From: a phage
Direction: 5' to 3' (one strand)
Length of the DNA: 64,000 bases
Assembly (NCBI GenBank): GCA_025812035.1
Contig: GCA_025812035.1_4719.1
The position numbers and the translations under genes were made by a program. How positions within the stretch are numbered: position 1 is the stretch's first letter; every line of letters starts with the position of its first letter. The notes beneath the pieces were generated by a model. The model saw only the letters and a program-made list of their open reading frames with translations. It was not told the DNA's origin and made no database searches. Positions 9,580-55,937 of the stretch are shown here, piece by piece.

Positions 9580-9630
9580 CTTCTTTCCTTTATTAAACGA
9601 TCATCGTCATATTCATTGCGCGTGACGTCA

Positions 9631-10860
9631 TCACTTCAGAAGCTTAGACGCCGCCATGCTACGTGCCTTCGCAACGTCATACGCATCCATGATCGCGTCG
9701 CCGATAGCGGTATGACGAATCAACGGAATACCCATGTCTGGATACTCTTTGGTGCCTAAGATGGATACTGGTTTGTCTTGATACGCGGCAAGCATCGAAC
9801 GGATATCCTGAACCTGGTTATACCGACAAACTGGCTTAAAGCCTGCTTTACGGAACCAATGCTCTAATTGAGGCCAATCTGTTTCACCGCGAGCAAGATA
9901 ATAGAAGGTATCTTTACCGTAGTATTCGGTCATCTCATCACGGATATTGTTAACAAATGCATTTACTGTAGCAATGGCTTCTTTATAGTCCATCACTCCG
10001 TCATGCTGAAAACAATAGTCGCGCGCTTCCTTCGGTGCTTTGGTTTGCCACCATTCTACCGTGGACTTACTAATATCACCGCCATCAGCGATTTGACCGT
10101 AAACGTCAGGGAAGATATCTATACGTGGGCCGTTAATAACAGATTCTGGATTAGCCAGATCGAAGAACAAGATGCCGATTTCCAGCAATACCCCGTTCTT
10201 TTCTAGACTGAGATTCTCCACATCCAGGCAAAACGCAGGTTTCTCTACCGCTGAAAAATCAAAATATTCTTCGAGACGCGGCGTTGGTTCGGCGGCGAAA
10301 AACGTCTCATGAATGAACTGGGCGAATGTCTTATTCATTGCTACTAAGTCAATGCCCAATTTACTTAGCAGAGGTATAATCGCGTGGTCATTCTGCTGTA
10401 TCACCACCCACTCTCGGCTTTTGATAGAACGACCAATTGAGTAAAAGAGATGAACGATGTCTAACGGTTTGTACGGAGCCTCAAAAGTTGTTCCCTGGAA
10501 CGACTCAGCCAGCGCCTTATGCGTTTCTTCACGATGATTCATCAGTTGGAGAATAGCGCGGCGCAGATAATACCGTAATGTTATCTCGTGAAGGTGTGAT
10601 ATATCTTCCTGAAATAACGTCATGAAACCGTGGTATGTATAATGCTCGCCTCTTTTAATTTCGTCGAAGAGTTCTTTGTTCCCCTTTATTTCTTCTGGTG
10701 TTACCTGTTTGATTTGATCGTGGATAATGTTGAGCAGGTCACTGCCGTGTACCTTAAACAGTTTTTCAACGCTAAAATCGGGTAATGTCGCAATTGCTGC
10801 GTACATTAATGTTTCTGCGGGATTAAGTTCTTTATTGTCAATTGTGATGGTTAAAGCCAT
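9631..10860 (-). CDS. DnaQ-like (DEDDh) 3'-5' exonuclease domain protein
   Basis: C-terminal half has FCLDVEN (Exo I D-x-E) and HTAIGDAIMDAY (Exo III H-x4-D); start set at ATG 10858..10860 preceded by GAGG. Confidence 0.6.
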   Translation of the reverse strand: MALTITIDNKELNPAETLMYAAIATLPDFSVEKLFKVHGSDLLNIIHDQIKQVTPEEIKGNKELFDEIKRGEHYTYHGFMTLFQEDISHLHEITLRYYLRRAILQLMNHREETHKALAESFQGTTFEAPYKPLDIVHLFYSIGRSIKSREWVVIQQNDHAIIPLLSKLGIDLVAMNKTFAQFIHETFFAAEPTPRLEEYFDFSAVEKPAFCLDVENLSLEKNGVLLEIGILFFDLANPESVINGPRIDIFPDVYGQIADGGDISKSTVEWWQTKAPKEARDYCFQHDGVMDYKEAIATVNAFVNNIRDEMTEYYGKDTFYYLARGETDWPQLEHWFRKAGFKPVCRYNQVQDIRSMLAAYQDKPVSILGTKEYPDMGIPLIRHTAIGDAIMDAYDVAKARSMAASKLLK

Positions 10861-10885
10861 TTTATTATACCTCATCGAAATCAAA

Positions 10886-11227
10886 TTAGTTAAATTCAGG
10901 TTTATCAGCAGCCAGACCAAGTCCAGCCAGTATTACGTAATCATACCAAGCTTTTACTTTCGCTTTCGCATCATCTAAACTATCTGCGTTGATGTGCGGA
11001 AACTCATCGTTGACTGGGAAAGGTAAATCGCAGTCGTAGCTTGTATAGTCTTTCCAACCTTTCCATTCGATAGTTAGAGGACCAAAAACGGTCTCAGCAA
11101 CAACATGGTTATAGCGACAGTTTTCACATGGCGGGTGCTCTTCCGACCAAACAAGCTCATGTCGCGCTAAAAGTTGTTGTACGACCGATAATGGTTGCTC
11201 TTCATTAAGTTCGATACTGTCTATCAA
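10886..11227 (-). CDS. hypothetical protein (113 aa)
   Basis: complete ORF, minus-strand array. Confidence 0.45.
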   Translation of the reverse strand: MIDSIELNEEQPLSVVQQLLARHELVWSEEHPPCENCRYNHVVAETVFGPLTIEWKGWKDYTSYDCDLPFPVNDEFPHINADSLDDAKAKVKAWYDYVILAGLGLAADKPEFN

Positions 11228-11820
11228 CGTATACCCTCCTTTTCTTTATCGTAATTACTACAAATATTGACAAACGCAGTATTATCAGACAGCATGCTGA
11301 CCATCTGACGGATTGCGGCCAACGGTTCAAGTTTAGGATTGATTGATTCACCGGTCAACGCGCTTATTGCCCGTGTGATCTCAACCAAATCGACGTTCGG
11401 GTCGTTATCATCAATAATGAGCAGACTCTTCGCTGGTTTCTGACGACGTTTGATGATTAACAAATACGTGATGAGATTCTCACGCCAAGCGTCAGAATCC
11501 AGATTGCGTATTACGGTTAACGCACGACGCTCTTCCGCCCATGATGGTTTCTCACGGATAACAGGCATGTAAGATAATTGCTCAGCAAGCCCTTTCAAGC
11601 TGACGCGGTTGGTGCCACCAGGATGCTCACTAATCCGCAGCATCTCGGTTAACAGACGGACATATGCGGCTGTTGTAGAAACACCCCGCAGCGGCAGGAA
11701 CAAATTATGTCCCGGAACCCCATCGTGACTCAGCGGTGCGATATACGCCATGAATCGCCGAATATCATCGTCGGTCTGTTCTCCAGCAACGAACTTAAAC
11801 GCTTCACGTAAAACGCTCAC
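11224..11820 (-). CDS. hypothetical protein (198 aa)
   Basis: complete ORF, minus-strand array. Confidence 0.5.
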   Translation of the reverse strand: MSVLREAFKFVAGEQTDDDIRRFMAYIAPLSHDGVPGHNLFLPLRGVSTTAAYVRLLTEMLRISEHPGGTNRVSLKGLAEQLSYMPVIREKPSWAEERRALTVIRNLDSDAWRENLITYLLIIKRRQKPAKSLLIIDDNDPNVDLVEITRAISALTGESINPKLEPLAAIRQMVSMLSDNTAFVNICSNYDKEKEGIR

Positions 11821-12106
11821 TATGAAGTCTCCTTAATGTTTCTTGCATACGTAGTCTCTTCGGCAGATATAGACGTTTGTATAGATCAACTAACAGATAA
11901 CGCATAACGGAAGCAACCACCAGGTATTCACCTTCGGCTTCCGAATAGCGTATCATGTTAATTGGGTAATTCAAATAAGAATAAGAAAAGAGATCATCGT
12001 TGGTGAGGCGATGATCTTCAAGATACTGGCGAAACAATTCTGCTAAGGCATCGTACTCCATTCCGTAGTAACACAACGATACCTGTCTTACCGACAGTCG
12101 TTTCAT
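11804..12106 (-). CDS. hypothetical protein (100 aa)
   Basis: complete ORF, minus-strand array. Confidence 0.4.
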   Translation of the reverse strand: MKRLSVRQVSLCYYGMEYDALAELFRQYLEDHRLTNDDLFSYSYLNYPINMIRYSEAEGEYLVVASVMRYLLVDLYKRLYLPKRLRMQETLRRLHSERFT

Positions 12107-16685: not shown

Positions 16686-17372
16686 TTAACACATGATTTC
16701 GCCATGTTTCTTTTCAACATACATATAAACGTCATCCAAATAAGCGATGAGTTTATCACGATTCGCACAAAGCGATTTAATCATTGCAATCTCTCTCATG
16801 TAAAGCTGCTTACCTAATGCCGGATAAGTAATCCAAGCATAGCCGTCAGGGGCAAATTTAGAAATAAGATAATCAGCAGTTTCCTGCAAGGCGAACTCTT
16901 TGCTCATCTGACCGTAACGATGCTCGATTGCACGGATACCAAAACGTTCGCTGTCAAGACGACCCATATCCGCCAAACGAAGAACCTGTGAAGCAACCGA
17001 GCTGCGAGGACCGGAATAGGAGGCGCGATGTTCAGCAATAAGCACGCGTATCTCCTCGATGTCTTCCGGTGTGAAAATATCTTGCTCGTTACGAAGCAAA
17101 ATAACTGACGCACGAATACCACCGATAAGGTGGTGGTATGTTCTGTTTTCGTGGCAAGCAATATCATGCATAAAAGCAGCGGTTAATAAACGACGACGTT
17201 CCGTGGGTCTAATGATACCAACCACGTCAGCAAGTTCATTTGCCAGTTCGACAACCGCGAGTACATGCTCTTCTTGATGCGCAAGATCATTCTTACGAAT
17301 ATTTTCAATTACTTCGGCGCGTGTTTCCTGAGTTAAGAACTTTAAACAATCCAACGAATATAAAGATTTCAT
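16686..17372 (-). CDS. HD-domain phosphohydrolase
   Basis: H..HD..H pattern (AAFMHDIACHEN..HH..D); conserved promoter-like motif 49 nt upstream. Confidence 0.6.
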   Translation of the reverse strand: MKSLYSLDCLKFLTQETRAEVIENIRKNDLAHQEEHVLAVVELANELADVVGIIRPTERRRLLTAAFMHDIACHENRTYHHLIGGIRASVILLRNEQDIFTPEDIEEIRVLIAEHRASYSGPRSSVASQVLRLADMGRLDSERFGIRAIEHRYGQMSKEFALQETADYLISKFAPDGYAWITYPALGKQLYMREIAMIKSLCANRDKLIAYLDDVYMYVEKKHGEIMC

Positions 17373-17420
17373 CGTACGTACCTCTTTGAATCGGTAAATA
17401 TATTAATAAATATTGTTTAC

Positions 17421-17445
17421 TCACGTAAGTAATATAGCCGTGAAA
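17421..17445 (-). promoter_or_regulatory. conserved promoter-like motif (minus-strand sense TTTCACGGCTATATTACTTACGTGA)
   Basis: one of four near-identical copies, 49 nt upstream of the HD hydrolase gene. Confidence 0.45.
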
Positions 17446-17494
17446 GGATTTGCATTGGTCCGTTTCGATGACCATCGTATTTTATGGATTGTCG

Positions 17495-17506
17495 AATGAC
17501 GTCATT
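17495..17506. promoter_or_regulatory. perfect 12-bp palindrome AATGACGTCATT in divergent intergenic region
   Basis: identical site at 48303..48314. Confidence 0.35.
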
Positions 17507-17589
17507 TTTAAAGGGACATCCCCGGCCTCCTCCCCGGGAAAGGTGCGGGGAGGAGTTTTTACATACTTTCTATTAATTCGAGCGCGATT

Positions 17590-19671
17590 ATGTTGGATAG
17601 AATAAATCGTCTAATGAACCGAATAGCGGTTAAAAATCAGAGTAACAACACCGTGCATATCGGGGGTATCGATGCCTGGCGTCTTTCAGATGACATTCAG
17701 AGAATATGGGGTACCTCCCGATTTATGAAACATATGTTTCGTAATTTCTCTTCCAGTGGACTCAGTCTTCACAACTTTTACCTTCCCGATTTCGTTTATA
17801 TTCTTGAAACGATCATCGAGGCAAAGAATACCCGCAGTAACAAACGCATGCTGAAACACCTTATCGAGGTGCTGCTGCAGGAAACATGGCTGCAAAATAC
17901 CACAATCGAGCAACCTGCAATCCTCGATAAAGCGCGCATGAAGAAAATGATGACGCTTTCTTTGTTCGATTATCAAGATGAGTTTATCGACATCTATAAC
18001 CGTAACGTACCTAAATATCGACTGAAAGGATACGTGTGTGCGATGGGTGCCGGTGCCGGTAAAACTATTACCGCCTTGGCCTTAAGTGCCGCCATGAACG
18101 TCGACGTGTTTGTGGTGTGTTGTCCTAAAAATACGATGCGTTCAGCATGGCAATCCGATGTAAACAAAGCCATCGTTGACCCTGCAACAGAAACCGCGTT
18201 CTGGTCAGATACCATGCCACCATCACAACTACAGAAAAGCGATAAGTACTATTTCCTGCATTACGAATCGATGGGCTTATTAAACGATGTAATGATCAAA
18301 CATAAACGTACAGCGAAACGCGTTCTTATTGTTGTTGACGAAAGCCATAACTTCAACGACAAGAACAGTCAACGTTCCCAACGATTGGTTGATCTTGTAC
18401 AGACGATGCGTCAGACCATGAATGCGGATGTGCATGTCTTGTTTATGTCGGGTACGCCTGTTAAGCAGATGGGTTCTGAGATGATCCCGTGTTTAGGTTG
18501 TATTGACCCGATGTTCCAAGGACAGGTGGTCGATAGCTTCAAATCAATTTACGGTTTAACCAGCAGCCGTGCTAACGATATCCTCAGACATCGTCTTGGG
18601 TTCATGATGCACGTTGTACCTAAAGAAGCTTATCGTAAAACCCGCCCGGAAGTTCAGGACGTTTACGTGAAACTTCCTAACGGTAGCGATTATACCATCT
18701 CGAGTATCCGTGACGATATGGCGATATTTGTACGCGATCGGGCTAAGTATTACAAGGATAACTGGGGGCATTACCGAAAGATCTTTGATGACGCCTTGGA
18801 TTATTACCGTAAAACTATCCGTACTGATGGAGAACGTAGAGAGCTGTCTCGATATGAATCGATTGTCGCTCGTTTCCAGAAAGGTTACGATCCTGTCAGA
18901 GACAAAGAAGATGCGATGTTCTGCAACGCGTTTGAAAAACGTTCCATCATGCCGGTTCTTCCTTCCGATTTAAGGATCGCTTTCAAAGACGCCAAGAGCG
19001 TCATCAAGTACGTTGGGTTGAAAATTCAGGGTGAAGCGTTAGCTCGTGTTCTAGGTGCTGCCCGCATTCGGTGTCATGTCGACATGGTGGAGTACATTGA
19101 CTTCGAAGGGTACATCAACAACGCTGAAGCCAAGGTGTTGATCTTCACGTCGTATGTTCAGGTGGTTGAACGTGTCGACACCATGCTTCGCGATGCTGGT
19201 TTCTTACCTGAACCGATTTACGGGAAGACTAACAAGAACATCAACCAGATACTTGCTCGTTTACGTGACGATCCTGACAGCGGTCCCGCTATCGCAACAT
19301 TTGATAGTTTGGCTGAAGGGGTTCCAATGCTGATGTGTAATGTGGGCCTTTTCCTGAACAACCCATGGCGTTCGTCTGATGAAATTCAGGCCATCAGCCG
19401 TCTCGATCGTGTAGGGCAAACGCAACCTGTTCGGATTTATCGTTTCATGTTAGACACAGGAAGTGAGGGTAACGTTTCTACACGTAGTCATGAGATCATG
19501 GAGTTAAGTCGACAGCTTGTTGAAGAAATCACTGGCGTCAAATACGTAGTGAACAAGCAAGATGATGTTAACTTGCAAGAAACGTTAGCGATGGAAGGAT
19601 ACGATCAATACGTTACCGTAAACCCTAAGGAATACGATATTAAACCGCGGTCTGTGTTCTTGGAATGGTGA
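17590..19671 (+). CDS. SNF2-family ATP-dependent helicase
   Basis: Walker A MGAGAGKT, DESH box (VVDESHNF), motif VI QAISRLDRVGQTQPVRIYRF; terminator hairpin directly downstream. Confidence 0.75.
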   Translation: MLDRINRLMNRIAVKNQSNNTVHIGGIDAWRLSDDIQRIWGTSRFMKHMFRNFSSSGLSLHNFYLPDFVYILETIIEAKNTRSNKRMLKHLIEVLLQETWLQNTTIEQPAILDKARMKKMMTLSLFDYQDEFIDIYNRNVPKYRLKGYVCAMGAGAGKTITALALSAAMNVDVFVVCCPKNTMRSAWQSDVNKAIVDPATETAFWSDTMPPSQLQKSDKYYFLHYESMGLLNDVMIKHKRTAKRVLIVVDESHNFNDKNSQRSQRLVDLVQTMRQTMNADVHVLFMSGTPVKQMGSEMIPCLGCIDPMFQGQVVDSFKSIYGLTSSRANDILRHRLGFMMHVVPKEAYRKTRPEVQDVYVKLPNGSDYTISSIRDDMAIFVRDRAKYYKDNWGHYRKIFDDALDYYRKTIRTDGERRELSRYESIVARFQKGYDPVRDKEDAMFCNAFEKRSIMPVLPSDLRIAFKDAKSVIKYVGLKIQGEALARVLGAARIRCHVDMVEYIDFEGYINNAEAKVLIFTSYVQVVERVDTMLRDAGFLPEPIYGKTNKNINQILARLRDDPDSGPAIATFDSLAEGVPMLMCNVGLFLNNPWRSSDEIQAISRLDRVGQTQPVRIYRFMLDTGSEGNVSTRSHEIMELSRQLVEEITGVKYVVNKQDDVNLQETLAMEGYDQYVTVNPKEYDIKPRSVFLEW

Positions 19672-19678
19672 TTAAGAA

Positions 19679-19711
19679 GCTCTGCCTGATGTCAGGCAGA
19701 GCTTTATGCTG
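19679..19711 (+). terminator. hairpin followed by TTTATGCTG after the SNF2 helicase gene
   Basis: stem GCTCTGCCTGA/TCAGGCAGAGC, then TTTATGCTG. Confidence 0.6.
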
Positions 19712-19748
19712 CGTTTACTGCAAAATCGTATGACGTATATACGTCGTA

Positions 19749-21227
19749 ATGATTAAAAATAGGGCAGAACACATGAAACTCAAACAAAGCTGGAAAAACG
19801 AACTCCTTGCATTAGTAAACAGCAAAAACAGTTTACAACTGACATTAGACGACGTAAAATTTGAACTAACCGAACCGGTAAGCGAAGTGCCTGGAACGGT
19901 CGTTGTTACGATCAAACCGAACGATAATAGTCGCTACTTTAACGAGCAGTCTCTGACCTACGTCCGTCGAGACATTGCTAAAAACTTCACCGGGATTCCG
20001 TTACGGGTTATCGTTAAAAAAGATACCGCCGTAAGGGATATCATCAGTACGATTGCTAAACGTTACGGACTGGTATTTGATACCACTGTCGACTTCCTCG
20101 AATCAGAACTGAATAAGCAAATTACTTTCGCAGACACCGGTATTAAAGACGTTACGGTTCCGGTTGCCAATACGTCTTATGTTTGGGCCGGTAATCTTCA
20201 GTTCAATATCGCTAACGATACGTTAAGCTTGATTACTATCATCAAGAAAACCGATCTTACGAATCTGGTTTATCTGGATGGTGTTGAAGCTGACACATCG
20301 GGGTCGTTACTGTTAGCAACCGCAGCACTTGTTAACGAACACGTAAATGAACCGATGGTTGAAAACGAAGATATCGTTAATGAATTCATTAACGTTCTTA
20401 ATGCTCTAGCCAAATATGGTGACATAACCGGCGATGAATTAGATGCCGCCTTACAAGCGTACGATGAAGCAGAAAACAGGAATAAAACCACGGTAATAAC
20501 TCTTGGTGATATCGAGTGCGTTGCAACCGAAAAAGACGATTGGGAAATTGGACATTTACGCGGTCGGATGGTTCTCGCGCTCAAATCCGATAAACAACCG
20601 GAGCTCGATAACACGTTCAGGTTGTTTACGAATGGTGGTGATGTATCGCTAACGTTAAACACAATGAAAGATATAAGTATCGATTGGGGTGATGGGAATA
20701 AAGTAACGTTGGATGCCGAAGAAAGATACGCGCACCACACATATGCCGACAATAACCAATACCAAATCGAAATTGTGTCTCGTACGGACCCAGATGTGCT
20801 GCGACCAAATTATATTTCTGGGAGTGAGATAACCGAAGTAATTCACTGGGCTACTACTTCAACAATAGCTCTGAATTTTGTTGGATGCGATAATTTAGCG
20901 ACTGTTCCAGATGAGATCCCAACTTCGTGGACAACGTTGGACAGCATGTTTGAAAGTTGTACGAATTTGAATGATCCGTCTATCTCTAACTGGAATACAA
21001 GTAACATCACATCAATGAATGGTATGTTCGGCGGATGCACTAAATTTAACCAACCTTTAGCTGCCTGGGATGTCAGCTCGGTAACTGACATTGGTGGTAT
21101 GTTTGTCGGGTGTAGCAGTTTTAACCAAGATTTAAGTGGATGGCGATTACCGTCTGGAGTAAACCACCGCGATTACGATAGTGGTGCTTTCTCGTGGCAG
21201 ACGGAACATAAACCGACGTTCAAGTAA
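19749..21227 (+). CDS. protein with C-terminal DUF285/BspA-type repeats (possible start at ATG 19773)
   Basis: tandem repeats of MF..C..(L/F)N...S.W(N/D)(T/V)S.(I/V)T.M..MF over the last 100 residues. Confidence 0.6.
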   Translation: MIKNRAEHMKLKQSWKNELLALVNSKNSLQLTLDDVKFELTEPVSEVPGTVVVTIKPNDNSRYFNEQSLTYVRRDIAKNFTGIPLRVIVKKDTAVRDIISTIAKRYGLVFDTTVDFLESELNKQITFADTGIKDVTVPVANTSYVWAGNLQFNIANDTLSLITIIKKTDLTNLVYLDGVEADTSGSLLLATAALVNEHVNEPMVENEDIVNEFINVLNALAKYGDITGDELDAALQAYDEAENRNKTTVITLGDIECVATEKDDWEIGHLRGRMVLALKSDKQPELDNTFRLFTNGGDVSLTLNTMKDISIDWGDGNKVTLDAEERYAHHTYADNNQYQIEIVSRTDPDVLRPNYISGSEITEVIHWATTSTIALNFVGCDNLATVPDEIPTSWTTLDSMFESCTNLNDPSISNWNTSNITSMNGMFGGCTKFNQPLAAWDVSSVTDIGGMFVGCSSFNQDLSGWRLPSGVNHRDYDSGAFSWQTEHKPTFK

Positions 21228-28507: not shown

Positions 28508-28921
28508 TCAGAAAGGTGTGCGGTTTTTATATTCGAATAGTGTCTGAAGGACGCATCGCGCTAGCGAGTTTTGTAATTCGATACGTCCTTGTTCTCCGAA
28601 CAGATCCAACACCATCATCCCTTTTGCTGTTTTCTCTGCCACTTCTTCACAAATCTGTAAATTGTACATGTCGTCATTACCGAGTTCCTTTCGACCGATC
28701 GAACTGACATGCATCAACTCACCTTTACTATCGCGAACATCGGAGAATGCATCATAGACCGCATCGATGTTCGCAGAACGCGTCAAACCCTCCGCTTCAC
28801 GCCATTCTCGGTATGTATCATCAAGCGTTTGTTCCTCGCTCGAGGTCGTTGATTCACCGTTAGTAGTTGGACGAATCAAATTGGGTGTTATCATTGCTAT
28901 TACGCTATCGTAATGCTCCAT
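28508..28921 (-). CDS. hypothetical protein (137 aa)
   Basis: complete ORF. Confidence 0.45.
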   Translation of the reverse strand: MEHYDSVIAMITPNLIRPTTNGESTTSSEEQTLDDTYREWREAEGLTRSANIDAVYDAFSDVRDSKGELMHVSSIGRKELGNDDMYNLQICEEVAEKTAKGMMVLDLFGEQGRIELQNSLARCVLQTLFEYKNRTPF

Positions 28922-36063: not shown

Positions 36064-36112
36064 AACAACCTCTTTTCGCGGTTCCCTGTTAAAACGTCTT
36101 CAGTGACGTCTA

Positions 36113-43587: not shown

Positions 43588-45028
43588 CTTACGTGCACCG
43601 ACGTTTATTAACTCATGGTTATCCACTGAAATACGGCGTTAGGGAAATAATCCTTCTTGCCGCGTTTTGAGATTTGCAATGCCATATTACTCGGAGACAA
43701 TCTGTAATGCCATGCTGCTTCATCGATAGAACTAAACTTCTTTGTTTCGCCGTTATCAAAGATGATTTTCAACGCTAGTTTAGGTAAATCGTCTTCCGTT
43801 TCTACTAGTTCGAAAGAATCGATATTCTCTGCCAGCGTTAACGGATCAACAGGTAATATCAGCCAACCAGCACGCTGCAATCCTCCACGTAGACTAATTT
43901 GTTTATTCAACGCAGGGGTAGCCATGCCAACTAACTTAGCAGCCAGCTTGCGGTCTTTAATATAAAGACGATAATCTCCGGTATTATTAATAGCATACAC
44001 ACCAAAGTTATTGAACGATACCTTTCCAGCATCGGAACTAGTAAAGCCTACAAAGTCGTGGCTGTCGGTAGCCACGTCGTATTTAAATGCTAATGGCTTG
44101 TTTCGACTGCCGCTAAGATACTTCTTGGCTGTAGATACCGATATGTTGAGATATCGTCCAATAGCATTCAAACTTTCTAGTTCGATGATTTCTCCTGTCA
44201 ATATGTCCTTTAACCGAACATTACCCATCGGTATTGGTGGTTTACCGACATAACCCAATTCACGATATGCGTGTTTCAAGTTATCTGAATCAGTAGCCCA
44301 TTCCAAATTTTCTAGTCTGTTATCCCAACGCACTCCATTAAGATGATTAGGGACACGACGGATTATACCTGACGTCGGATCTGGGTTAAATGTTTCAAGG
44401 ACGATCTGATGATGGTATTTCACTTTGTTGTTCCTAGTGAAAGCGCGATAGTTGTTTTTGCCCGACTTGGGTGGTTCAGTACGAAACAACACTGTCAGAC
44501 TAGACACATCTACTATCGTACCGTTCTTATTAACAACGATACCATCAAAACCATTAACAGGACGATAATCAGACAAACAATCTTCAGAAATTGCCTGTCC
44601 AACTAAAGGTTCACTCAATTTGACCTCCTTTATAAAAGAAGTCGGTGCACGTAATTATCGACTATATCTTCATCCTCGTTGCGAGGAGTCTCCCGTTTTG
44701 GTCTGTGTTTAACAGAGCCTACTCTACTCGACATCGCGTCTTTCGATAGTCTGTGAGCACACATCTTAACGAACATTCGTGGATTCCTAAGCAGGTGAAC
44801 GTTCTTGTTGAGATGCTTCGCTGCGGATTATTCCCGTCCTACCTCTTTTACCATACCCAGTTCATTACGCTGGCCCTCATCTGTGTCACCACGATGAGTT
44901 GGTGTGTAGTCCGATTACAGAAACTTCCCGTCAATTAGAGAGTTTTAACTACGTTCCTGTTACCAGAAACCCGACTCCGACGATATCAATTAAATCAACG
45001 TAAATTATTGATTTAATTGAAGAAACTG
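43588..45028 (-). mobile_element. group I intron 1 with embedded HNH homing endonuclease gene
   Basis: IGS GAGUCGG (44971..44977) pairs with exon end CCGACUU with terminal U-G; P AAUUGACGGGAAG (44924..44936), Q AAUCCGCAGC (44820..44829), R ACAGACUAUCG (44744..44754), S AAGAUAUAGUCG (44659..44670); 12-bp stem 44641..44652 with 43591..43602 loops out the ORF; ends with G at 43588. Confidence 0.7.
43608..44618 (-). CDS. HNH homing endonuclease (intron-encoded), UUG start
   Basis: HHQIVLETF..NHLNGVRWDNRLENLEWATDSDNLKHA HNH motif; AAGGAGGT RBS before UUG; lies entirely inside intron 1. Confidence 0.75.
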   Translation of the reverse strand: MSEPLVGQAISEDCLSDYRPVNGFDGIVVNKNGTIVDVSSLTVLFRTEPPKSGKNNYRAFTRNNKVKYHHQIVLETFNPDPTSGIIRRVPNHLNGVRWDNRLENLEWATDSDNLKHAYRELGYVGKPPIPMGNVRLKDILTGEIIELESLNAIGRYLNISVSTAKKYLSGSRNKPLAFKYDVATDSHDFVGFTSSDAGKVSFNNFGVYAINNTGDYRLYIKDRKLAAKLVGMATPALNKQISLRGGLQRAGWLILPVDPLTLAENIDSFELVETEDDLPKLALKIIFDNGETKKFSSIDEAAWHYRLSPSNMALQISKRGKKDYFPNAVFQWITMS

Positions 45029-46376: not shown

Positions 46377-48272
46377 TTAGAACAGGTTGAATGCCCCACC
46401 CATGTTGTTACCACCAACGTTCGGACGATCGCTGCGTGCGTAGATGCTACCGGAGATATTACCCAGACCACGAGCACGTGCTGCCATGTTACCACGAACA
46501 GCGGTACCCGCCAGATGCTGGATATTCTCAGGACGGATGGTGAAGCCAGCTTCAGCAGCTGCTTCAATCAACGCAGCAAGCGCTTGCGGTTCGAAGTCGT
46601 AACGCATTGCCCAACCGGTTTGTTCCCAGCTACCAGACAGAACACGATCGATGATTTCGTGACGAGCGACAACACGCTGAGACATCGACATATCGGTACG
46701 GTCGAAGCTGTCTTCCCATGCTTCTACGGTATCCGGGTTAGTGATGTTCATCATGTACAGATCGTCCATATCGCGAATATCGTGACGGTTACCATCCTGG
46801 TGGTTGTAGTGACCCAGCGGGATACGGTTACCGGTAGCGTAGACCAGCGGTTGACCGTATTGATATTTCTTGCTGAAGCAGCCCAGGGTAGTATCATCGA
46901 AGGCACGGAAGAGTGCTTTGTAACCTTCAGAGACTTCCCGAACATCAGCCTCAACATTACCCGTATAGATCTTCTCAGCCGCCGGGATCATACGCAACAG
47001 CCAGCTGTATTCGCCTTCTTCCGGCACGTCGATAGAAATCAGCAGGGACGGATACAGTACCTGTTGCAGGAACTTGTAAATCTGCTCATTGGTTTGAGTA
47101 GACAGATCCAGCGGTGCGGTAACTTCCGGATCCAGCACCATCGCCAGAGCACCCGGGTTATGCGGACCGATACCACGAGCAGCGTTGCTGATTAAAGACT
47201 GCGCCCATGCCATGCCGCTGTTCAGCGTAGCAATGGTACCAATCAGACCCAATACAAAAGTATTCGGTGTGAATGCGTCCAGCTCCAGCGGGTAAGCGCT
47301 GGTCATCACGTAACGCGGCTGGTATTGTACAGTCGGCGGTACCGGATAACCGTTAACCAGAACAGGACCTTGGTTGAAGGTCGGGTTCTGCGGGCTGTAG
47401 GTCAGGTCGATATAGCCGGTAGTTGCGACCAGACGCTGCTGGCTATCGTAATCGCTCATCGCTTGACGGATGCGGTTAGAGATAGTTACAGTGATGTCGG
47501 AACGCACTGGGTTACCAACGATATCGCTGTCCTGCATACCGCTGGTGTTATACTGAACGCTGCTGATCGGCTGATCGCTTGCCATCATGCCCAGGTTGAA
47601 CTGCGGCAGGCCCAGTTTATCACCGAGACGGATTTCGATTGCGGTTTGGATTGCGTTATCTGCAGCAGACAGCAGGGTGGTTGCCAGGTGTGCAGATTCA
47701 GCGGTGATTTCATTGGTCACCACAGCCAGACCAGCGATACGAACAGTACCATTAGCCTTGCCACCAATAGCCGCATACATTGCCGCCATGACTTCGTTGA
47801 TGAACGTGCCGTTCAGGTTATCAACCCAGGTACGCGGTACCAGAATGTTACCATGCGGACCTTGTTCTTCACGACGCGGCAGCGGAGCCAAACCGGCAAC
47901 CAGCGGAAGCACATAACCGAAGAAGTGGTTATGATCACCAACTTTCGCACCACTCATAACCACCAGGGTCGGATACGGTACACTGTACTGACCAGGATCG
48001 ACAGTCACCATGATGAAGTCGTCTTTAAAGCCTTTATCTTCCAGTTCTTTTTCCATCAGACGACGGAGGTTCAGTACTTGCTCAGAACCGGTGTTACGGC
48101 TAATACGACGACTCAGTGTACGGTTGATCGTACGCATCGTATGAGTCACTTTAGGCTGGCCAGCAAAGTCTGCAGCGGTTTCCAGCGCTTCATCTGCACG
48201 TTGTGCGGTGCGGGTTTCAGCTGCACGAATTTCTACATTATCGTTACCGTTTTTACGTACGTCTAAGCCCAT
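46377..48272 (-). CDS. abundant 631-aa protein; candidate nuclear-shell (chimallin-like) or major structural protein
   Basis: very strong codon bias; disordered N-terminus and Gly-rich C-terminal tail; conserved promoter-like motif upstream and strong GC hairpin downstream. Confidence 0.6.
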   Translation of the reverse strand: MGLDVRKNGNDNVEIRAAETRTAQRADEALETAADFAGQPKVTHTMRTINRTLSRRISRNTGSEQVLNLRRLMEKELEDKGFKDDFIMVTVDPGQYSVPYPTLVVMSGAKVGDHNHFFGYVLPLVAGLAPLPRREEQGPHGNILVPRTWVDNLNGTFINEVMAAMYAAIGGKANGTVRIAGLAVVTNEITAESAHLATTLLSAADNAIQTAIEIRLGDKLGLPQFNLGMMASDQPISSVQYNTSGMQDSDIVGNPVRSDITVTISNRIRQAMSDYDSQQRLVATTGYIDLTYSPQNPTFNQGPVLVNGYPVPPTVQYQPRYVMTSAYPLELDAFTPNTFVLGLIGTIATLNSGMAWAQSLISNAARGIGPHNPGALAMVLDPEVTAPLDLSTQTNEQIYKFLQQVLYPSLLISIDVPEEGEYSWLLRMIPAAEKIYTGNVEADVREVSEGYKALFRAFDDTTLGCFSKKYQYGQPLVYATGNRIPLGHYNHQDGNRHDIRDMDDLYMMNITNPDTVEAWEDSFDRTDMSMSQRVVARHEIIDRVLSGSWEQTGWAMRYDFEPQALAALIEAAAEAGFTIRPENIQHLAGTAVRGNMAARARGLGNISGSIYARSDRPNVGGNNMGGAFNLF

Positions 48273-48302: not shown

Positions 48303-48314
48303 AATGACGTCATT
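48303..48314. promoter_or_regulatory. perfect 12-bp palindrome AATGACGTCATT
   Basis: identical to 17495..17506. Confidence 0.35.
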
Positions 48315-48336: not shown

Positions 48337-48361
48337 TCACCTAGGTAATATAACCCTGAAA
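48337..48361 (-). promoter_or_regulatory. conserved promoter-like motif copy
   Basis: TTCAGGGTTATATTACCTAGGTGA on minus strand, 65 nt upstream of the 631-aa gene. Confidence 0.45.
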
Positions 48362-48385
48362 TTTTTTTCAATATTGGTGTAACCG

Positions 48386-48410
48386 TATTGAACGATATAA
48401 ACCCCTAGGT
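48386..48410 (+). promoter_or_regulatory. inverted copy of the promoter-like motif facing the plus-strand gene 48527..49621
   Basis: GATATAAACCCCTAGGTGAATG; CCTAGGTGAATG is a perfect inverted repeat of 48338..48349. Confidence 0.35.
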
Positions 48411-48526
48411 GAATGCTGCCGAGAAGCAACATTCTTTCTACATATAATCAGGATATGTCTGTAAACTTTTACTTCTCTTATTGAGAGTAACATCATATCC
48501 GCTTACTACCTTCTTACGGAGTTCGT

Positions 48527-51839: not shown

Positions 51840-51901
51840 AAATCCTCCAAAAGTTATTTAGACTGTCTACATCATCTCGTATATCTGTTAAAAAAGAAGG
51901 A

Positions 51902-52551: not shown

Positions 52552-52566
52552 AATAGCACCCTTTAT

Positions 52567-53411: not shown

Positions 53412-53949
53412 GAATTCCTTCTATCTCGAGGTTATTCTCGCCTGTCTTCGGTAATAACCCACTGGCTGTTAACATCTGTGTCATCGAGTAGTCAAAACAC
53501 GGAAATATAAGGTTAACGGTTTCCTGGATCGCATCAACATAACTATAAATGGCTTCATAGTACTCACCGTCATGATCCACGCTAACCAGGTTCTGGCACA
53601 GTTCTTCGCTTATCATTTCATATACCGGCGGATAAAACGAATGAAATGGTCGCTGCATACGTAACGACCAGTACTCGTACGTTGTATACTGAAGCACGTC
53701 ATAAGCCGATACGTTAATGCGATCGAAGAAAGCGTACTTGTCCATGTGCTGGTACAGCATCGCCAGCACGGTTTCCAAGCACACTGATATCCGTACACCG
53801 TCATCTTTTCCGTTAAGGAAATTAGGTTTCTGCCGATAGCGTACAAATGCTGACGGCTTTGATTGTACTATTCCACCACCAACCATAACGTCATACTCGT
53901 ATCTAACGTAAAATTGAAATGCCACCAATCTTCTACACGTGGGATCCAC
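53374..53949 (-). CDS. hypothetical protein (191 aa)
   Basis: complete ORF. Confidence 0.45.
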   Translation of the reverse strand: MDPTCRRLVAFQFYVRYEYDVMVGGGIVQSKPSAFVRYRQKPNFLNGKDDGVRISVCLETVLAMLYQHMDKYAFFDRINVSAYDVLQYTTYEYWSLRMQRPFHSFYPPVYEMISEELCQNLVSVDHDGEYYEAIYSYVDAIQETVNLIFPCFDYSMTQMLTASGLLPKTGENNLEIEGIHGYVAFFNVECG

Positions 53950-54353
53950 GTACGAAGGATCTGGTTAACTTCGCTTCGCATTACCGATAAACGACAACGA
54001 AAGTCAAACTTCTCTTCATGACCGTAGTCTTCATGCAAGAAAACTTCATCCAAAACGAACTCAAGTTGCATGTCGACATCGCGACCCGAGATATTTCGTT
54101 TATACAGATACAGTTCAATCGTGTCGTAAAGCAGTGTATGAATATCATAATTTCCGTTCGGTGAGAAGTAAGGTAATCGCTCATCGAACATCGTAAACAG
54201 ATATTCACTGTAGTTTAATAACGGGATGATGTACCGACGTCCTGTCTGTGGTGTGCGAATATGTATCGAAACCTGACTTGGACGCGGAATAACCGACGGC
54301 TTAGAATCGTCTCTCTGAAATTGCTCTAAAGATCGCAACAAAGGTGGCCGCAT
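53868..54353 (-). CDS. hypothetical protein (161 aa)
   Basis: complete ORF. Confidence 0.45.
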   Translation of the reverse strand: MRPPLLRSLEQFQRDDSKPSVIPRPSQVSIHIRTPQTGRRYIIPLLNYSEYLFTMFDERLPYFSPNGNYDIHTLLYDTIELYLYKRNISGRDVDMQLEFVLDEVFLHEDYGHEEKFDFRCRLSVMRSEVNQILRTWIPRVEDWWHFNFTLDTSMTLWLVVE

Positions 54354-54930
54354 TGTAACTCTCCAACGCCCAATTATAAGGCCCTTCTAACATGTGTTCC
54401 CATACGTGAATAAACTCACTACCGAAGACAGGCTCCAGCGCCATGGTAAGATTCGTAAGTTCTGACGCAGCCACGTGGTAAGCATCGACATGCCTATCCA
54501 TCGACGGATCGTCTTCATTGAAAATACGTTCTGTGTCGCCAGCCCGTTCAATAAGTTCGATGATGAGATCTGTCCATGTCTCGTGACACGTCATCGTTTC
54601 CTGTTCTCGACTTAGTATGCCGATGTCTGCGTGAACGCTGGACTCGAACCGGTCTAAAAGGACCCGAAGAACGTGCACCTTGTCGATGTATTTCACCGTT
54701 ATCCAAGAAAGCGGTTGCCATCGACCCAGCATCCATCCGGTACTCGGGAACCCCAAACTCATATAGTACGGGTTGCACGGGACCGAGGACGGAGCGACGT
54801 TGTTTAAATCGTTCCTTAAGGGCAAGGCCCTGTTTAATGTAAACGGGTTCATTGGCGAGTTGTTCTGCTTTTCGTTTTGCGTGAGCCAATCGAAGTTCTT
54901 CCAATTGCCCAAGCCATTCGAATTGTTCAT
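54301..54930 (-). CDS. hypothetical protein; N-terminal 380 nt overlap the upstream ORF in the +1 frame
   Basis: AGGAG RBS before ATG 54928..54930; see frameshift finding. Confidence 0.4.
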   Translation of the reverse strand: MNNSNGLGNWKNFDWLTQNEKQNNSPMNPFTLNRALPLRNDLNNVAPSSVPCNPYYMSLGFPSTGWMLGRWQPLSWITVKYIDKVHVLRVLLDRFESSVHADIGILSREQETMTCHETWTDLIIELIERAGDTERIFNEDDPSMDRHVDAYHVAASELTNLTMALEPVFGSEFIHVWEHMLEGPYNWALESYNAATFVAIFRAISERRF

Positions 54931-55525
54931 CTGTTAGCTCCTGGGGACGTTCAACAACCACACCAGATGGGCAGACATTGATCGTAATGTTAATTGACGG
55001 CATTGCCATCACACGAGGATTACTGTTGCGTACGTGGACAACATGTTCGGTTGCTGATTTACGATCGACGCAATACTCTGTTTCTTGGAACTCAAATGCT
55101 TTTAACGGTGTTGGTTTTGTTTGACGTTTTGGAACACGACCAAGATCAACAATATAGGCGTAATCACAAACACGTTCTATTCCGTAAATACGGTTATCCG
55201 ACCAGTTCTTACCAAACAGCTTGTTGTGATGATAAGATAGATATTCGGTTACCATACCCTGAACAACATCGAAGTCTTCTCGAAATTCAGGCTGGTACCA
55301 AATCGGACCGAGAATATCTGCGAACGATTCATGACGATATCGAGGATCGTGTCGGGTCCAGGTCATTCTCTGGTTAAGGTCGAAATCAACCAACAATTCT
55401 GTTAATTGCAGTTTTTCCTTCGGAGAAAGCTGGCGTTGATGATGCAAACTCAGGCAATCGATAAGCGGTAATGAAACCCACGATGCTAATGTGTACAAAT
55501 CGATCCTGGCTAATCTCTTGGTCAT
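54548..55525 (-). CDS. hypothetical protein; C-terminal 40 aa Arg-rich and probably not native
   Basis: coding-like through ..KERFKQRRSVLGPV then degenerates; overlaps 54301..54930. Confidence 0.4.
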   Translation of the reverse strand: MTKRLARIDLYTLASWVSLPLIDCLSLHHQRQLSPKEKLQLTELLVDFDLNQRMTWTRHDPRYRHESFADILGPIWYQPEFREDFDVVQGMVTEYLSYHHNKLFGKNWSDNRIYGIERVCDYAYIVDLGRVPKRQTKPTPLKAFEFQETEYCVDRKSATEHVVHVRNSNPRVMAMPSINITINVCPSGVVVERPQELTDEQFEWLGQLEELRLAHAKRKAEQLANEPVYIKQGLALKERFKQRRSVLGPVQPVLYEFGVPEYRMDAGSMATAFLDNGEIHRQGARSSGPFRPVRVQRSRRHRHTKSRTGNDDVSRDMDRSHHRTY

Positions 55526-55616
55526 ACTCTTTTCCTAAGTCCCCATTGTTTATACACACGATATCTGGGAATAGTTAAAATATACGGCGTATAGCGAAAC
55601 AGGAGAGTTTCTGACG

Positions 55617-55937
55617 TCATTTTCTCCCTCTTCGAATACCACCGATACCTCTTCGATCCAAGACGTCCCATGCACGTTTTATTTCATCCTCCGTTGCTCT
55701 GGTATCTGGAGGGACAACCATAACACAATCGTGGAATGGCCAGTGCGTCGGTCTAGGGTCAGCAAATAGATTATCCCATTCAAGCGTCCATGATTGCTTT
55801 GAACGATTATAGTAGATCGTAAGGTACGTATTAGTGTACGCTGGGTAACCACGCATAACTTCAACATCTTTACGATCCTGCCGTTCCTGATTCCAATCGT
55901 TAAATCGTTTTCTTATTTTATCCCATCGCTTTCCCAT
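55617..55937 (-). CDS. hypothetical protein (start at ATG 55935..55937)
   Basis: AGGAG RBS before internal ATG; longer form would include the terminator hairpin. Confidence 0.45.
   Translation of the reverse strand: MGKRWDKIRKRFNDWNQERQDRKDVEVMRGYPAYTNTYLTIYYNRSKQSWTLEWDNLFADPRPTHWPFHDCVMVVPPDTRATEDEIKRAWDVLDRRGIGGIRRGRK

What the first reader, a model, noticed from the sequence alone, without database searches (positions are those of the whole stretch)
9623..55619. Recurrent TGACGTCA palindromes in intergenic regions
A perfect 12-bp palindrome AATGACGTCATT occurs twice (17495..17506 and 48303..48314), both in divergent intergenic regions next to the promoter-like motif. TGACGTCA also occurs at 9623..9630 and 55612..55619, a related GTGACGTC at 36103..36110, and a 14-bp palindrome GACGTATATACGTC at 19732..19745 just upstream of the plus-strand repeat-protein gene. 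All are intergenic. I did not scan coding regions exhaustively.
Basis: seen in the sequence. Interest (0 to 1): 0.45.

Follow-up and report, generated by a model that had tools for sequence, protein, structure and literature searches.

The report
Conserved palindrome in nuclear-shell gene leader
The scattered TGACGTCA sites are not one regulatory motif, but one of them is the local version of a perfect palindrome that almost all nucleus-forming jumbo phages keep just upstream of their nuclear-shell (chimallin) gene, pointing to an undescribed control element for that key gene.

Summary
The window is a Goslar-like E. coli chimallivirus (about 92% identical to Goslar). TGACGTCA occurs exactly 4 times, always outside annotated genes. 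This is not one motif family, though.

- **9623:** absent from two close relatives.
- **55612:** mutated in one close relative, and it is the first three codons of a possible 32-codon ORF.
- **19732:** the 14-mer is not a palindrome in Goslar.
- **Goslar genome:** the 8 other TGACGTCA copies are all in coding sequence.

The two 12-mers are different.

- **48303:** lies in the transcribed leader of the chimallin (nuclear shell) gene, 30-32 nt after the early-promoter core TATATTAC and 30 nt before the ATG. Sister lineages have TGTCGACA in the same alignment columns. 16 of 18 other chimalliviruses examined carry their own perfect palindrome of 8-18 bp at 24-48 nt before that ATG (CTTGATCAAG in Pseudomonas phages, CAATCGCGATTG, ACACACTCGAGTGTGT and others). 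Other early leaders lack one.
- **17495:** sits 10 nt downstream of a conserved TATG-type promoter for the helicase. Only its left half is conserved in more distant lineages.

My best reading is a dyad-symmetric binding site for a dimeric phage factor that controls chimallin transcription. That mechanism is inferred, not shown.

The parts
48303..48314 (-). AATGACGTCATT, the chimallin (chmA) leader palindrome. The 12-mer starts 30 nt (its TGACGTCA core 32 nt) after the early-promoter core and ends 30 nt before the ATG. It is the Goslar-lineage version of a family-wide dyad element.
   Evidence: Invariant in six Goslar-lineage genomes while loop and spacer positions around it change. TGTCGACA occupies the same alignment columns in L010 and L014. 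Perfect palindromes occupy the same place in 16 of 18 other chimalliviruses.
48337..48374 (-). Early (virion-RNAP type) promoter of chmA: TTGAAAAAAATTTCAGGGT-TATATTAC-CTAGGTGA.
   Evidence: Five TATATTAC copies with a shared flanking consensus in the window and 13 in Goslar. Conserved in L010 and L014, whose chimallin is 46-47% identical. Matches the phiKZ-type early promoter described as an extended -10 box (PMC8244752, PMC11512511).
48314..48339 (-). Predicted 5' stem-loop of the chmA transcript (UGAAU.GAGC...GCU.AUUCA), directly before the palindrome.
   Evidence: Fold. An equivalent stem-loop with different base pairs is predicted in L010 and L014. The L029 substitutions fall in its loop. 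Most Goslar early leaders begin with such a stem-loop.
46377..48272 (-). Chimallin / nuclear shell protein gene (homolog of Goslar gp189).
   Evidence: 96% amino-acid identity to Goslar_00189, annotated 'nuclear shell protein' in RefSeq. Pfam PF25677 on its homologs.
17495..17506 (+). Second AATGACGTCATT, at +10 to +21 of the putative helicase transcript. Only AATGAC (the left half) is conserved in more distant lineages.
   Evidence: Retained in Goslar-lineage genomes. In L015, L016 and L018 the right half reads CCCTTA or CCCAAC.
17480..17500 (+). Conserved box TTTTATGG-AT-TGTCGAATGAC. Putative non-virion-RNAP (TATG-type) promoter and initial transcribed sequence of the SNF2 helicase gene. The G at 17486 is the inferred +1.
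   Evidence: Invariant block across four lineages with 56-62% helicase identity. TTTTATG is also present upstream of the helicase in L038 and L040. (-3)TATG(+1) is the phiKZ nvRNAP consensus (PMC7618050). The transcription start site is inferred, not measured.
17527..17560 (+). GC-rich hairpin plus U-run inside the helicase leader (terminator or attenuator).
   Evidence: Fold. Annotated as a terminator in Goslar. A G-C to A-T compensatory change separates the window from Goslar. Unrelated hairpins occupy the same place in L015 and L016.
17429..17436 (-). Early-promoter core TATATTAC for the HD-hydrolase gene (16686..17372). It lies 58 nt from the 17495 palindrome, on the other strand.
   Evidence: Conserved in L015, L016 and L018. 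HD domain.
55612..55619 (-). TGACGTCA that overlaps the TGA stop of the upstream gene and is codons 1-3 (ATG ACG TCA) of a possible 32-codon ORF (55523-55620). Judged incidental.
   Evidence: Reads TGGCATCA in IMGVR_3300011560.
9623..9630 (-). TGACGTCA whose TGA is an in-frame second stop directly after the stop of the exonuclease-like gene. Specific to this phage. Judged chance.
   Evidence: Reads AGGACGCT or AGGATGCT in two close relatives.
36103..36110 (-). GACGTCAC, 10 nt after another early-promoter core. Contains only the 6-bp palindrome GACGTC. No evidence that it is related to the other sites.
   Evidence: It is the only non-coding GACGTC among the 18 sites that are not TGACGTCA, which matches background.
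19732..19745 (+). 14-bp palindrome overlapping TATG motifs upstream of the leucine-rich-repeat protein gene. Not a palindrome in Goslar.

Best explanation
**What is shown.**
- The listed sites are a mixture, not one motif.
- The copy at 48303-48314 belongs to a dyad-symmetric element that chimalliviruses keep in the transcribed leader of the nuclear-shell gene chmA.
- The layout is: early virion-RNAP promoter (TATATTAC), a 5' stem-loop, a perfect palindrome, an AT-rich spacer, the Shine-Dalgarno sequence, then the ATG.
- The position is conserved, ending 24-48 nt before the ATG.
- The sequence is clade-specific: AATGACGTCATT here, TGTCGACA in the sister lineage, CTTGATCAAG in Pseudomonas phages, CAATCGCGATTG in pEa_SNUABM_37 and SA002, and other sequences elsewhere.

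**What I infer.** The symmetry runs through the centre of the element, and it is restored by paired changes at positions too close together to base-pair within one strand. So it is most likely read as a two-fold symmetric duplex: a binding site for a dimeric phage-encoded DNA-binding protein. Sitting roughly 25 nt downstream of the early start site, such a protein could block or shut off early transcription of chmA. It could also position a second, later start site, as phiKZ gp054 has.

**The other sites.**
- The 17495 copy lies at +10 to +21 of a TATG-type promoter for the SNF2 helicase. Only its left half is ancient. It may be a second site for the same factor acquired in the Goslar lineage, or a coincidence.
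- 9623, 55612, 36103 and 19732 are incidental.

**Confidence.** I put the existence of the conserved chmA-leader element and the mixed nature of the listed sites at about 0.85. I put the dimeric-protein mechanism at about 0.4, and that is the figure given as the confidence here.
For: **The set is heterogeneous.**
- 9623 and 55612 are lost in genomes more than 90% identical.
- The 14-mer is not palindromic in Goslar.
- 8 of Goslar's 11 octamers are in coding sequence.

**Position in the leader.** The 12-mer starts 30 nt (its octamer core 32 nt) after TATATTAC and ends 30 nt before the ATG.

**Symmetry is kept through change.**
- Sister lineages, whose chimallin is 46-47% identical, keep the promoter and have TGTCGACA in the same alignment columns. 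That is a symmetric A-to-T plus T-to-A double change.
- In L029 the substitutions and indels fall in the hairpin loop and the spacer, not in the palindrome.

**Family-wide survey of chmA leaders.** Length and distance to the ATG are in brackets.
- TTCTTGATCAAGAA: phiKZ (14 bp, 24 nt), RVTF4, Psa21.
- D6: TCTTGATCAAGA (12, 28).
- CTTGATCAAG: 201phi2-1, Viktualia.
- Phabio: TTAACTTGATCAAGTTAA (18, 33).
- PhiPA3: TACTTGATCAAGTA (14).
- RP12: GCTTTGCAAAGC (12, 40).
- Xoo-sp14: TTGCGCGCAA (10, 29).
- RTH11: GTTCGCGCGAAC (12, 43).
- FLC9: ACACACTCGAGTGTGT (16, 31).
- CAATCGCGATTG: pEa37, SA002.
- In the Pseudomonas clade the flanks change symmetrically: TT..AA, TA..TA, TTAA..TTAA.

**Background and specificity.**
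- A palindrome of 10 bp or more occurs at 0.086 per 60 nt in the same loci. By my own grouping, 7 of about 9 independent clades are positive, which I calculate gives P of about 1e-6.
- Of 13 early-type leaders in Goslar, only chmA has a perfect palindrome of 10 bp or more. The rest have ordinary stem-loops with real loops.
- The same holds for the TATATTAC sites with early-promoter context in phiKZ 1-98777.

**Against a simple RNA hairpin.** RNA folding leaves the palindrome unpaired.

**A second start site is plausible.** phiKZ gp054 has an early primary start site and a second, middle-promoter start site (PMC8244752). The reported 'TACT 22 nt upstream' rule places that second start inside the phiKZ palindrome. 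That placement is my inference from the sequence.
Against: - No binding protein has been identified and no binding has been tested.
- Several leaders carry two or three different palindromes: phiKZ, Psa21, SA002. One sequence-specific factor does not explain this easily.
- The clade palindrome is not repeated elsewhere in phiKZ 1-98777. It is not in the helicase leaders of phiKZ, FLC9, RTH11 or pEa48. So there is no regulon outside the Goslar lineage.
- Eowyn and Noxifer lack the element.
- Long perfect palindromes are about twice as common as expected throughout these genomes, including coding sequence.
- phiKZ terminators are themselves perfect palindromes, for example GCCTCCCCTAGGGGAGGC. 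So an RNA hairpin or a mutational bias can also produce symmetry through the centre.
- The comparison between the Goslar lineage and its sister lineage alone is only modestly significant (my estimate, p of about 0.02-0.1).
Confidence: 0.4

Rival explanations
1. RNA-level element. In the chmA mRNA leader the palindrome forms a short tetraloop hairpin, or pairs with the same sequence on another RNA molecule. This tunes translation, stability, export or localisation of this very abundant early mRNA. In the Goslar lineage the helicase leader carries the same 13 nt (AAUGACGUCAUUU) in the sense orientation.
For: - Both 12-mers lie in transcribed leaders, in the sense orientation, and share 13 nt.
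- The element sits at a fixed distance from the Shine-Dalgarno sequence and ATG in all clades.
- Several different palindromes in one leader fit a structural requirement better than one protein's specificity.
- phiKZ terminator hairpins are perfect palindromes.
- Jumbo-phage 5' UTR-derived small RNAs and start-codon-proximal RNA binding by ChmC have been reported (PMC11512511; PMC11077065).
Against: - The minimum-free-energy folds leave the palindrome unpaired. Its own hairpin would have only 3-4 base pairs in the Goslar and sister lineages.
- The compensated positions, 3 and 6 of the octamer, are only 2 nt apart and cannot pair within one strand.
- Under selection for a hairpin alone, the loop would rarely be self-complementary. 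Yet most clades have loop-less perfect palindromes, while ordinary early leaders have real loops.
Confidence: 0.25
2. The palindrome is the initiation region of a second (middle) chmA promoter, read directly by the non-virion RNA polymerase with no separate factor.
For: - phiKZ gp054 has an early primary start site and a middle-promoter secondary start site (PMC8244752).
- TACT motifs lie about 22 nt upstream of the phiKZ palindrome.
- The nvRNAP consensus overlaps the start site (PMC7618050).
- The remaining leader of 24-33 nt is close to the typical phiKZ 5' UTR length of 31-40 nt.
Against: - There is no TATG or TACT near the Goslar palindrome.
- Nothing about an initiator requires dyad symmetry.
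- The sequences differ completely between clades, whereas TATG is shared across them.
- No start-site data exist for Goslar.
Confidence: 0.15
3. By-product or chance. A palindrome-generating mutational bias (template switching) acts in a heavily transcribed leader, and the identical 12-mer in the helicase leader is a coincidence. Each leader has its own unrelated elements.
For: - There is a genome-wide excess of long palindromes of about two-fold, mostly in coding sequence.
- Only the left half of the 17495 copy is conserved in more distant lineages.
- No sharing between the chmA and helicase leaders is seen in other clades.
Against: - The Pseudomonas core CTTGATCAAG is conserved down to about 40% chimallin identity while its flanks diverge.
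- Among early leaders the element is specific to chmA.
- 7 of about 9 clades are positive, against a background of 0.086 per 60 nt.
- A repeated non-coding 12-bp palindrome arose in only 3 of 5000 shuffles.
Confidence: 0.1
4. One reading: TGACGTCA and its relatives form one dispersed operator motif, bound by an early phage protein at all six listed places.
For: - All 4 octamers are non-coding in the window.
- All four read ATGACGTCA in the direction of local transcription.
Against: - 9623 and 55612 are not conserved among close relatives.
- 8 of 11 Goslar copies are in coding sequence.
- Their positions relative to promoters are inconsistent: upstream, +3, about +25, and at stop codons.
- TGA at the end of the octamer explains why some sit at gene ends.
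- GACGTC shows no further intergenic excess.
Confidence: 0.05

Closest known systems
Palindromic operators of dimeric phage or bacterial regulators (lambda/P22 Cro-CI operators, C-boxes of restriction-modification controller proteins)
   Same: Perfect dyad symmetry of 10-18 bp. Placed at or just downstream of a promoter for a gene whose timing matters. Clade-specific sequence at a conserved position, with symmetric (paired) changes.
   Different: No cognate protein is known. Usually there is a single site per genome (two in the Goslar lineage) rather than operator arrays. It lies inside the transcribed leader rather than over the -10/-35 region. The polymerases involved are the phage's own multisubunit enzymes.
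MetJ met-box (AGACGTCT) and the eukaryotic CRE/ATF site (TGACGTCA)
   Same: Sequence only. The CRE octamer is identical, and the met-box shares the GACGTC core. This comparison rests on my own knowledge.
   Different: Met-boxes work as two or more tandem 8-bp repeats, and here there is one unit. CRE is bound by bZIP proteins of eukaryotes. The equivalent element in other chimalliviruses has an unrelated sequence. So the octamer itself is not the conserved feature.
phiKZ-type early promoters and the dual early/middle promoters of phiKZ gp054 (PMC8244752)
   Same: The adjacent TATATTAC promoter is of this type. The gene is the ortholog of gp054. The phiKZ leader carries the equivalent palindrome.
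   Different: In the papers I could search, the published descriptions give promoter motifs and start sites but do not mention a leader palindrome.
Hairpin promoters of the coliphage N4 virion RNA polymerase (PMC4496689; my own knowledge)
   Same: An inverted repeat in DNA associated with early transcription by a polymerase carried in the virion.
   Different: N4 hairpins have a 3-nt loop, lie upstream of the start site and are themselves the promoter. Here the promoter is TATATTAC, and the loop-less palindrome lies about 25 nt downstream.
5' UTR-derived small RNAs and premature terminators of jumbo phages (201phi2-1, PMC11512511)
   Same: The helicase leader has a putative start, then a conserved box, then a hairpin and U-run before the coding sequence.
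   Different: This concerns the surroundings of the 17495 copy, not the palindrome as such. No transcript data exist for this phage.

Membership tests
Dispersed regulatory motif (regulon-type site) | Many copies, enriched outside genes across the whole genome | tested here: not met
   Goslar has 11 copies and 8 are in coding sequence. All 7 outside the window-equivalent region are coding. GACGTC is found at 4 intergenic and 73 coding sites.
Dispersed regulatory motif (regulon-type site) | Sites conserved in close relatives | tested here: not met
   9623 is absent in two relatives. 55612 is mutated in one. The 14-mer is imperfect in Goslar. Only 17495 and 48303 are retained.
Dispersed regulatory motif (regulon-type site) | Constant position relative to the promoter or start codon | tested here: not met
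   Relative to the nearest TATATTAC core: the octamer at 48305 starts 32 nt after it; 36103 starts 10 nt after it; 17495 is 58 nt upstream on the other strand. 9623 and 55612 sit at stop codons.
Operator for a dimeric DNA-binding protein | Perfect dyad symmetry maintained by paired changes | tested here: met
   TGACGTCA against TGTCGACA in the same alignment columns. Symmetric flank changes around CTTGATCAAG.
Operator for a dimeric DNA-binding protein | Located at or next to a promoter of the regulated gene, at a conserved position | tested here: met
   Lies between TATATTAC and the ATG of chmA in 17 of 19 genomes, 24-48 nt before the ATG.
Operator for a dimeric DNA-binding protein | A cognate protein that binds the site | not testable with these tools
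   No candidate was identified. The divergent neighbour (364 aa) has no Pfam match.
RNA hairpin / intrinsic terminator | Stable stem, a loop of at least 3 nt, and a U-run | tested here: not met
   The palindrome is unpaired in the minimum-free-energy and centroid folds. It would form at most 4 base pairs plus a tetraloop, and it has no U-run.
MetJ met-box operator | Two or more tandem 8-bp AGACGTCT-like boxes | tested here: not met
   A single unit at each site; the flanks are unrelated.
Chimallivirus early (virion-RNAP) promoter | AT-rich upstream region plus a TATATTAC core upstream of the gene | tested here: met
   This applies to the neighbouring motif, not to the palindrome. The start site itself was not measured.
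nvRNAP TATG-type promoter (context of 17495) | TATG overlapping the start site, upstream of the gene, conserved | tested here: inconclusive
   TTTTATGG is invariant in four lineages, and TTTTATG is present in two more distant ones. Many hairpin-TTTATGC cassettes occur in Goslar. There are no start-site data.

The most novel reading that the evidence does not exclude
Chimalliviruses share a previously undescribed dyad operator in the leader of the nuclear-shell gene. It is bound by a conserved but rapidly re-specifying dimeric phage regulator. That regulator times chimallin synthesis, shutting off early transcription by the virion polymerase or handing over to the non-virion polymerase. In the Goslar lineage the same factor has also captured the SNF2 helicase leader.
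Probability: 0.3. Interest if true: 0.7.

Novelty: new member of a known kind. Interest (0 to 1): 0.5.

Why it matters
Chimallin builds the phage nucleus. It is the most strongly and earliest expressed gene of these phages, and how its expression is controlled is unknown.

A cis-element held at one position in the chmA leader from E. coli, Pseudomonas, Erwinia, Salmonella, Xanthomonas, Ralstonia and Burkholderia phages gives a concrete, mutable handle on that control. It also gives a bait for finding the factor that reads it.

What is conserved is the symmetry and the position.

Tried and rejected
- **Rfam.** The gathering-threshold scan of the whole window gave no match.
- **Terminator and sigma-70 scan around 17300-19800.** Nothing useful.
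- **Leader peptide or upstream ORF starting at ATG ACG TCA.** Rejected for the two 12-mers. The helicase-leader ORF is 26 codons here, 4 in Goslar and different again in L015 and L016. L010 has ATT instead of ATG in the chmA leader.
- **Small-RNA seed idea for UGUCGAAUGAC.** The complement occurs only by chance elsewhere in Goslar.
- **A shared 'TGTCGA half-site' between the sister-lineage chmA and helicase leaders.** A 6-mer shared between two 70-nt leaders is expected by chance, so I dropped it.
- **Scans of IMG/VR.** The promoter pattern returned the three Goslar-lineage contigs already held plus one unrelated contig (L022). The helicase box returned only one unrelated contig (L035).
- **Chimallin searches of IMG/VR and JGI metagenomes.** These returned only Goslar-lineage contigs. 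The profile protein search added nothing. So the chimallin of the 255-kb L016-type phages could not be reached.
- **Published start-site tables for phiKZ and 201phi2-1.** Not held as supplements.
- **Literature searches for TGACGTCA, CTTGATCAAG, and palindrome plus chimallin.** No prior description found.
- **Host MetJ or a CRE-type reading.** Rejected, as set out in the membership tests.

Full report
**Source of the window.** The window is a close relative of Escherichia phage Goslar, a nucleus-forming jumbo phage (Chimalliviridae). Nucleotide identity is about 92% and gene order is the same. Gene 46377..48272 (minus strand) is chimallin, the nuclear shell protein and the homolog of Goslar gp189. 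Gene 17590..19671 (plus strand) is an SNF2-type helicase. Gene 16686..17372 (minus strand) is an HD hydrolase.

**Checking the observation.** Every coordinate is right.
- TGACGTCA occurs exactly four times: 9623, 17497, 48305, 55612.
- AATGACGTCATT occurs twice.
- GTGACGTC is at 36103 and GACGTATATACGTC is at 19732.

The count alone is unremarkable: 1.76 expected, and 11 of 100 shuffles reach 4. The placement is not. I transferred Goslar's annotation to the window, which leaves 7.0% non-coding. All four sites fall in that fraction (p = 2.6e-5). TGACGTCA is the most intergenic-biased palindromic octamer in the window. A 12-bp palindrome repeated in non-coding DNA arose in only 3 of 5000 shuffles.

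**Why it is not one motif.** I assembled the whole Goslar genome.
- It has 11 TGACGTCA sites and 8 are inside annotated genes.
- The three intergenic ones are the homologs of 17497, 48305 and 55612.
- All 7 sites outside the window-equivalent region are coding.
- The core GACGTC is not enriched outside genes, either genome-wide or in the window once the four octamers are set aside: 1 of 18.

The sites do not hold up among genomes more than 90% identical.
- 9623 reads AGGACGCT or AGGATGCT in Goslar and IMGVR_3300011560.
- 55612 reads TGGCATCA in IMGVR_3300011560.
- The 14-mer is GACGTATATGCGTC in Goslar. It is one of ten 14-bp palindromes in the window, nine of them in coding sequence.

Two of the octamers owe their place to their TGA.
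- At 9623 the TGA is an in-frame second stop codon directly after the upstream gene's stop.
- At 55612 the TGA is the stop of the upstream gene. ATG ACG TCA opens a 32-codon ORF that ends in an ATGA overlap with the next gene.

Positions relative to the promoter motif are also inconsistent.

**The promoter motif.** There are five copies in the window and thirteen TATATTAC or TACATTAC copies in Goslar. It matches the phiKZ-type early promoter used by the virion RNA polymerase, described as an extended -10 box about 10 bp before the start site (PMC8244752, PMC11512511).

**The copy at 48303.**
- On the chimallin strand the leader reads: TATATTAC, 6 nt, a predicted 5' stem-loop, AATGACGTCATT, 30 nt including the Shine-Dalgarno sequence, ATG.
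- The whole leader is invariant in six Goslar-lineage genomes. In the most distant of them (L029, chimallin 93% identical) the changes fall in the hairpin loop and in the spacer, not in the palindrome.
- Two more distant lineages (chimallin 46-47% identical; L010 and L014) keep the promoter and a stem-loop with different base pairs. In the same alignment columns they have a different palindrome, TGTCGACA, extended to TTGTCGACAA in L010.
- The two differences from TGACGTCA are symmetric: A3 to T and T6 to A. They are only two bases apart, so pairing within one strand cannot explain them.

**Survey of known chimalliviruses.** Chimallin in these phages is 24-30% identical to the window's. Sixteen of the eighteen leaders outside the Goslar lineage carry a perfect palindrome ending 24-48 nt before the chmA start codon and downstream of a TATATYAC-like promoter. 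The first number in brackets is the palindrome length in bp, the second the distance to the ATG in nt.
- phiKZ, RVTF4 and Psa21: TTCTTGATCAAGAA (14; 24-25).
- D6: TCTTGATCAAGA (12; 28).
- 201phi2-1 and Viktualia: CTTGATCAAG (10; 27-28).
- Phabio: TTAACTTGATCAAGTTAA (18; 33).
- PhiPA3: TACTTGATCAAGTA (14; 28 nt before an in-frame upstream ATG that has a good Shine-Dalgarno sequence).
- RP12: GCTTTGCAAAGC (12; 40).
- Xoo-sp14: TTGCGCGCAA (10; 29).
- RTH11: GTTCGCGCGAAC (12; 43).
- FLC9: ACACACTCGAGTGTGT (16; 31).
- pEa_SNUABM_37 and SA002: CAATCGCGATTG (12; 30 and 48).
- Eowyn and Noxifer lack it.

In the Pseudomonas clade the core CTTGATCAAG is invariant down to about 40% chimallin identity, while the flanks change symmetrically.

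Background and specificity:
- The background rate of palindromes of 10 bp or more in the same loci is 0.086 per 60 nt.
- By my own grouping, about 7 of 9 independent clades are positive. I calculate a probability near 1e-6 for that.
- Of Goslar's 13 early-type leaders only chmA has a perfect palindrome of 10 bp or more. The others begin with ordinary stem-loops that have real loops.
- In phiKZ 1-98777 the same holds for the TATATTAC sites with early-promoter context, and CTTGATCAAG occurs only once.

I found no description of this element in the searchable literature.

**The copy at 17495.**
- Three lineages with 56-62% helicase identity keep the HD-hydrolase/helicase divergent arrangement.
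- The conserved block there is ATTTTATGG, 2-3 nt, TGTCGAATGA(C/T). Only the left half of the window's palindrome is inside it. The right half reads CCCTTA or CCCAAC elsewhere.
- TATG with +1 at the G is the phiKZ non-virion RNA polymerase consensus (PMC7618050).
- TTTTATG is also found upstream of the helicase in more distant phages.
- Goslar is full of cassettes in which a hairpin is followed directly by TTTATGC(C/T)G.
- So the palindrome sits at about +10 to +21 of a probable helicase transcript.
- It is followed by a hairpin and U-run. That hairpin shows a compensatory change between the window and Goslar, and unrelated hairpins replace it in the other lineages.
- In phiKZ, FLC9, RTH11 and pEa48 the helicase leader does not carry that clade's chmA palindrome.
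- The sharing of 13 nt (AATGACGTCATTT, sense orientation in both leaders) is therefore specific to the Goslar lineage. It is statistically unusual, but it is either a recent acquisition or a coincidence.

**Mechanism.** What is shown is a position-conserved, sequence-variable perfect palindrome in the chmA leader, specific to that gene. What follows is inferred.
- Symmetry runs through the centre of the element. Paired changes occur at positions that cannot pair in a hairpin. Ordinary early leaders use looped stems. Together these point to recognition as a symmetric duplex by a dimeric DNA-binding protein of the phage.
- At roughly +25 from the early start, such a protein could stop the virion polymerase or set up a second start.
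- phiKZ gp054 does have an early primary and a middle secondary start site. The published 'TACT 22 nt upstream' rule puts the secondary start inside the phiKZ palindrome. That placement is my inference from the sequence.

Points against this reading:
- No protein is known.
- Some leaders carry two or three different palindromes.
- No further copies exist in phiKZ 1-98777.
- Long palindromes are about twice as common as expected throughout these genomes.
- phiKZ terminators are themselves perfect palindromes.

The rivals therefore stay open: an RNA-level role (hairpin or intermolecular pairing), a direct initiator role, or a mutational by-product. I put the existence of the conserved chmA-leader element at about 0.85 and the dimeric-protein mechanism at about 0.4.

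**Verdict.** The octamer TGACGTCA itself is not the conserved feature. What is conserved is the dyad and its position in the chimallin leader.

Noticed in passing
window 19679-19712, and many places in Goslar (L001-L006): Terminator-plus-promoter cassettes. A GC-rich hairpin, often GGGAGGG...CCCTCCC, is followed directly by TTTATGC(C/T)G. TATG is the phiKZ non-virion RNA polymerase start-site consensus, so termination and re-initiation signals appear to be fused.
   Followed up: partly
window 55523-55620 (- strand): Possible unannotated 32-codon gene (MTSETLLFRYTPYILTIPRYRVYKQWGLRKRV). It has a Shine-Dalgarno sequence and ATGA stop/start overlaps with both neighbouring genes. The frame is kept in three relatives.
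   Followed up: partly
window 17527-17560 (+ strand): Hairpin plus U-run inside the helicase leader. A G-C to A-T compensatory change separates the window from Goslar, and unrelated hairpins occupy the same place in L015 and L016. This is a candidate attenuator or 5' UTR-derived small RNA.
   Followed up: partly
whole window; Goslar genome; phiKZ 1-98777 (L062+L042+L061): Long perfect palindromes are 1.5- to 2-fold more frequent than the naive expectation, and most are inside genes. Counts of 12-mers: 31 against 15.6 (window), 88 against 58 (Goslar), 48 against 24 (phiKZ). Unexplained.
   Followed up: no
window 48394-48415 (+ strand): GATATAAACCCCTAGGTGAATG shares CCTAGGTGAATG with the chmA early promoter on the other strand. 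Its core GGGGTTTATATCGT is conserved in L010. It is probably the promoter of the divergent 364-aa gene, which has no Pfam match.
   Followed up: partly
window 43589-43602 and 44641-44654: A 14-nt repeat flanks the HNH endonuclease gene (43608..44618), next to the place where Goslar has an annotated group I intron. The Rfam gathering scan found no intron.
   Followed up: no
window 22595-24856 (- strand): This helicase-like gene spans 2260 nt, against 1575 nt in Goslar, so it contains an insertion. Gene 28508..28921 has no nucleotide match to Goslar_00170. Genes at 2714-3082, 3701-4099 and 6667-7650 are extra relative to Goslar.
   Followed up: no
Goslar early leaders; L052 about 73 nt before the helicase ATG: Most early transcripts start with a 5' stem-loop that has a real loop. 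In pEa_SNUABM_48 another early promoter is followed by a 16-bp perfect palindrome, GTTTTCGATCGAAAAC. So chmA may not be the only gene with such an element in every clade.
   Followed up: partly
L053 (PhiPA3) 328-402: The annotated PhiPA3 chmA start looks 25 codons too short. An in-frame upstream ATG with a good Shine-Dalgarno sequence lies 28 nt after the leader palindrome.
   Followed up: no
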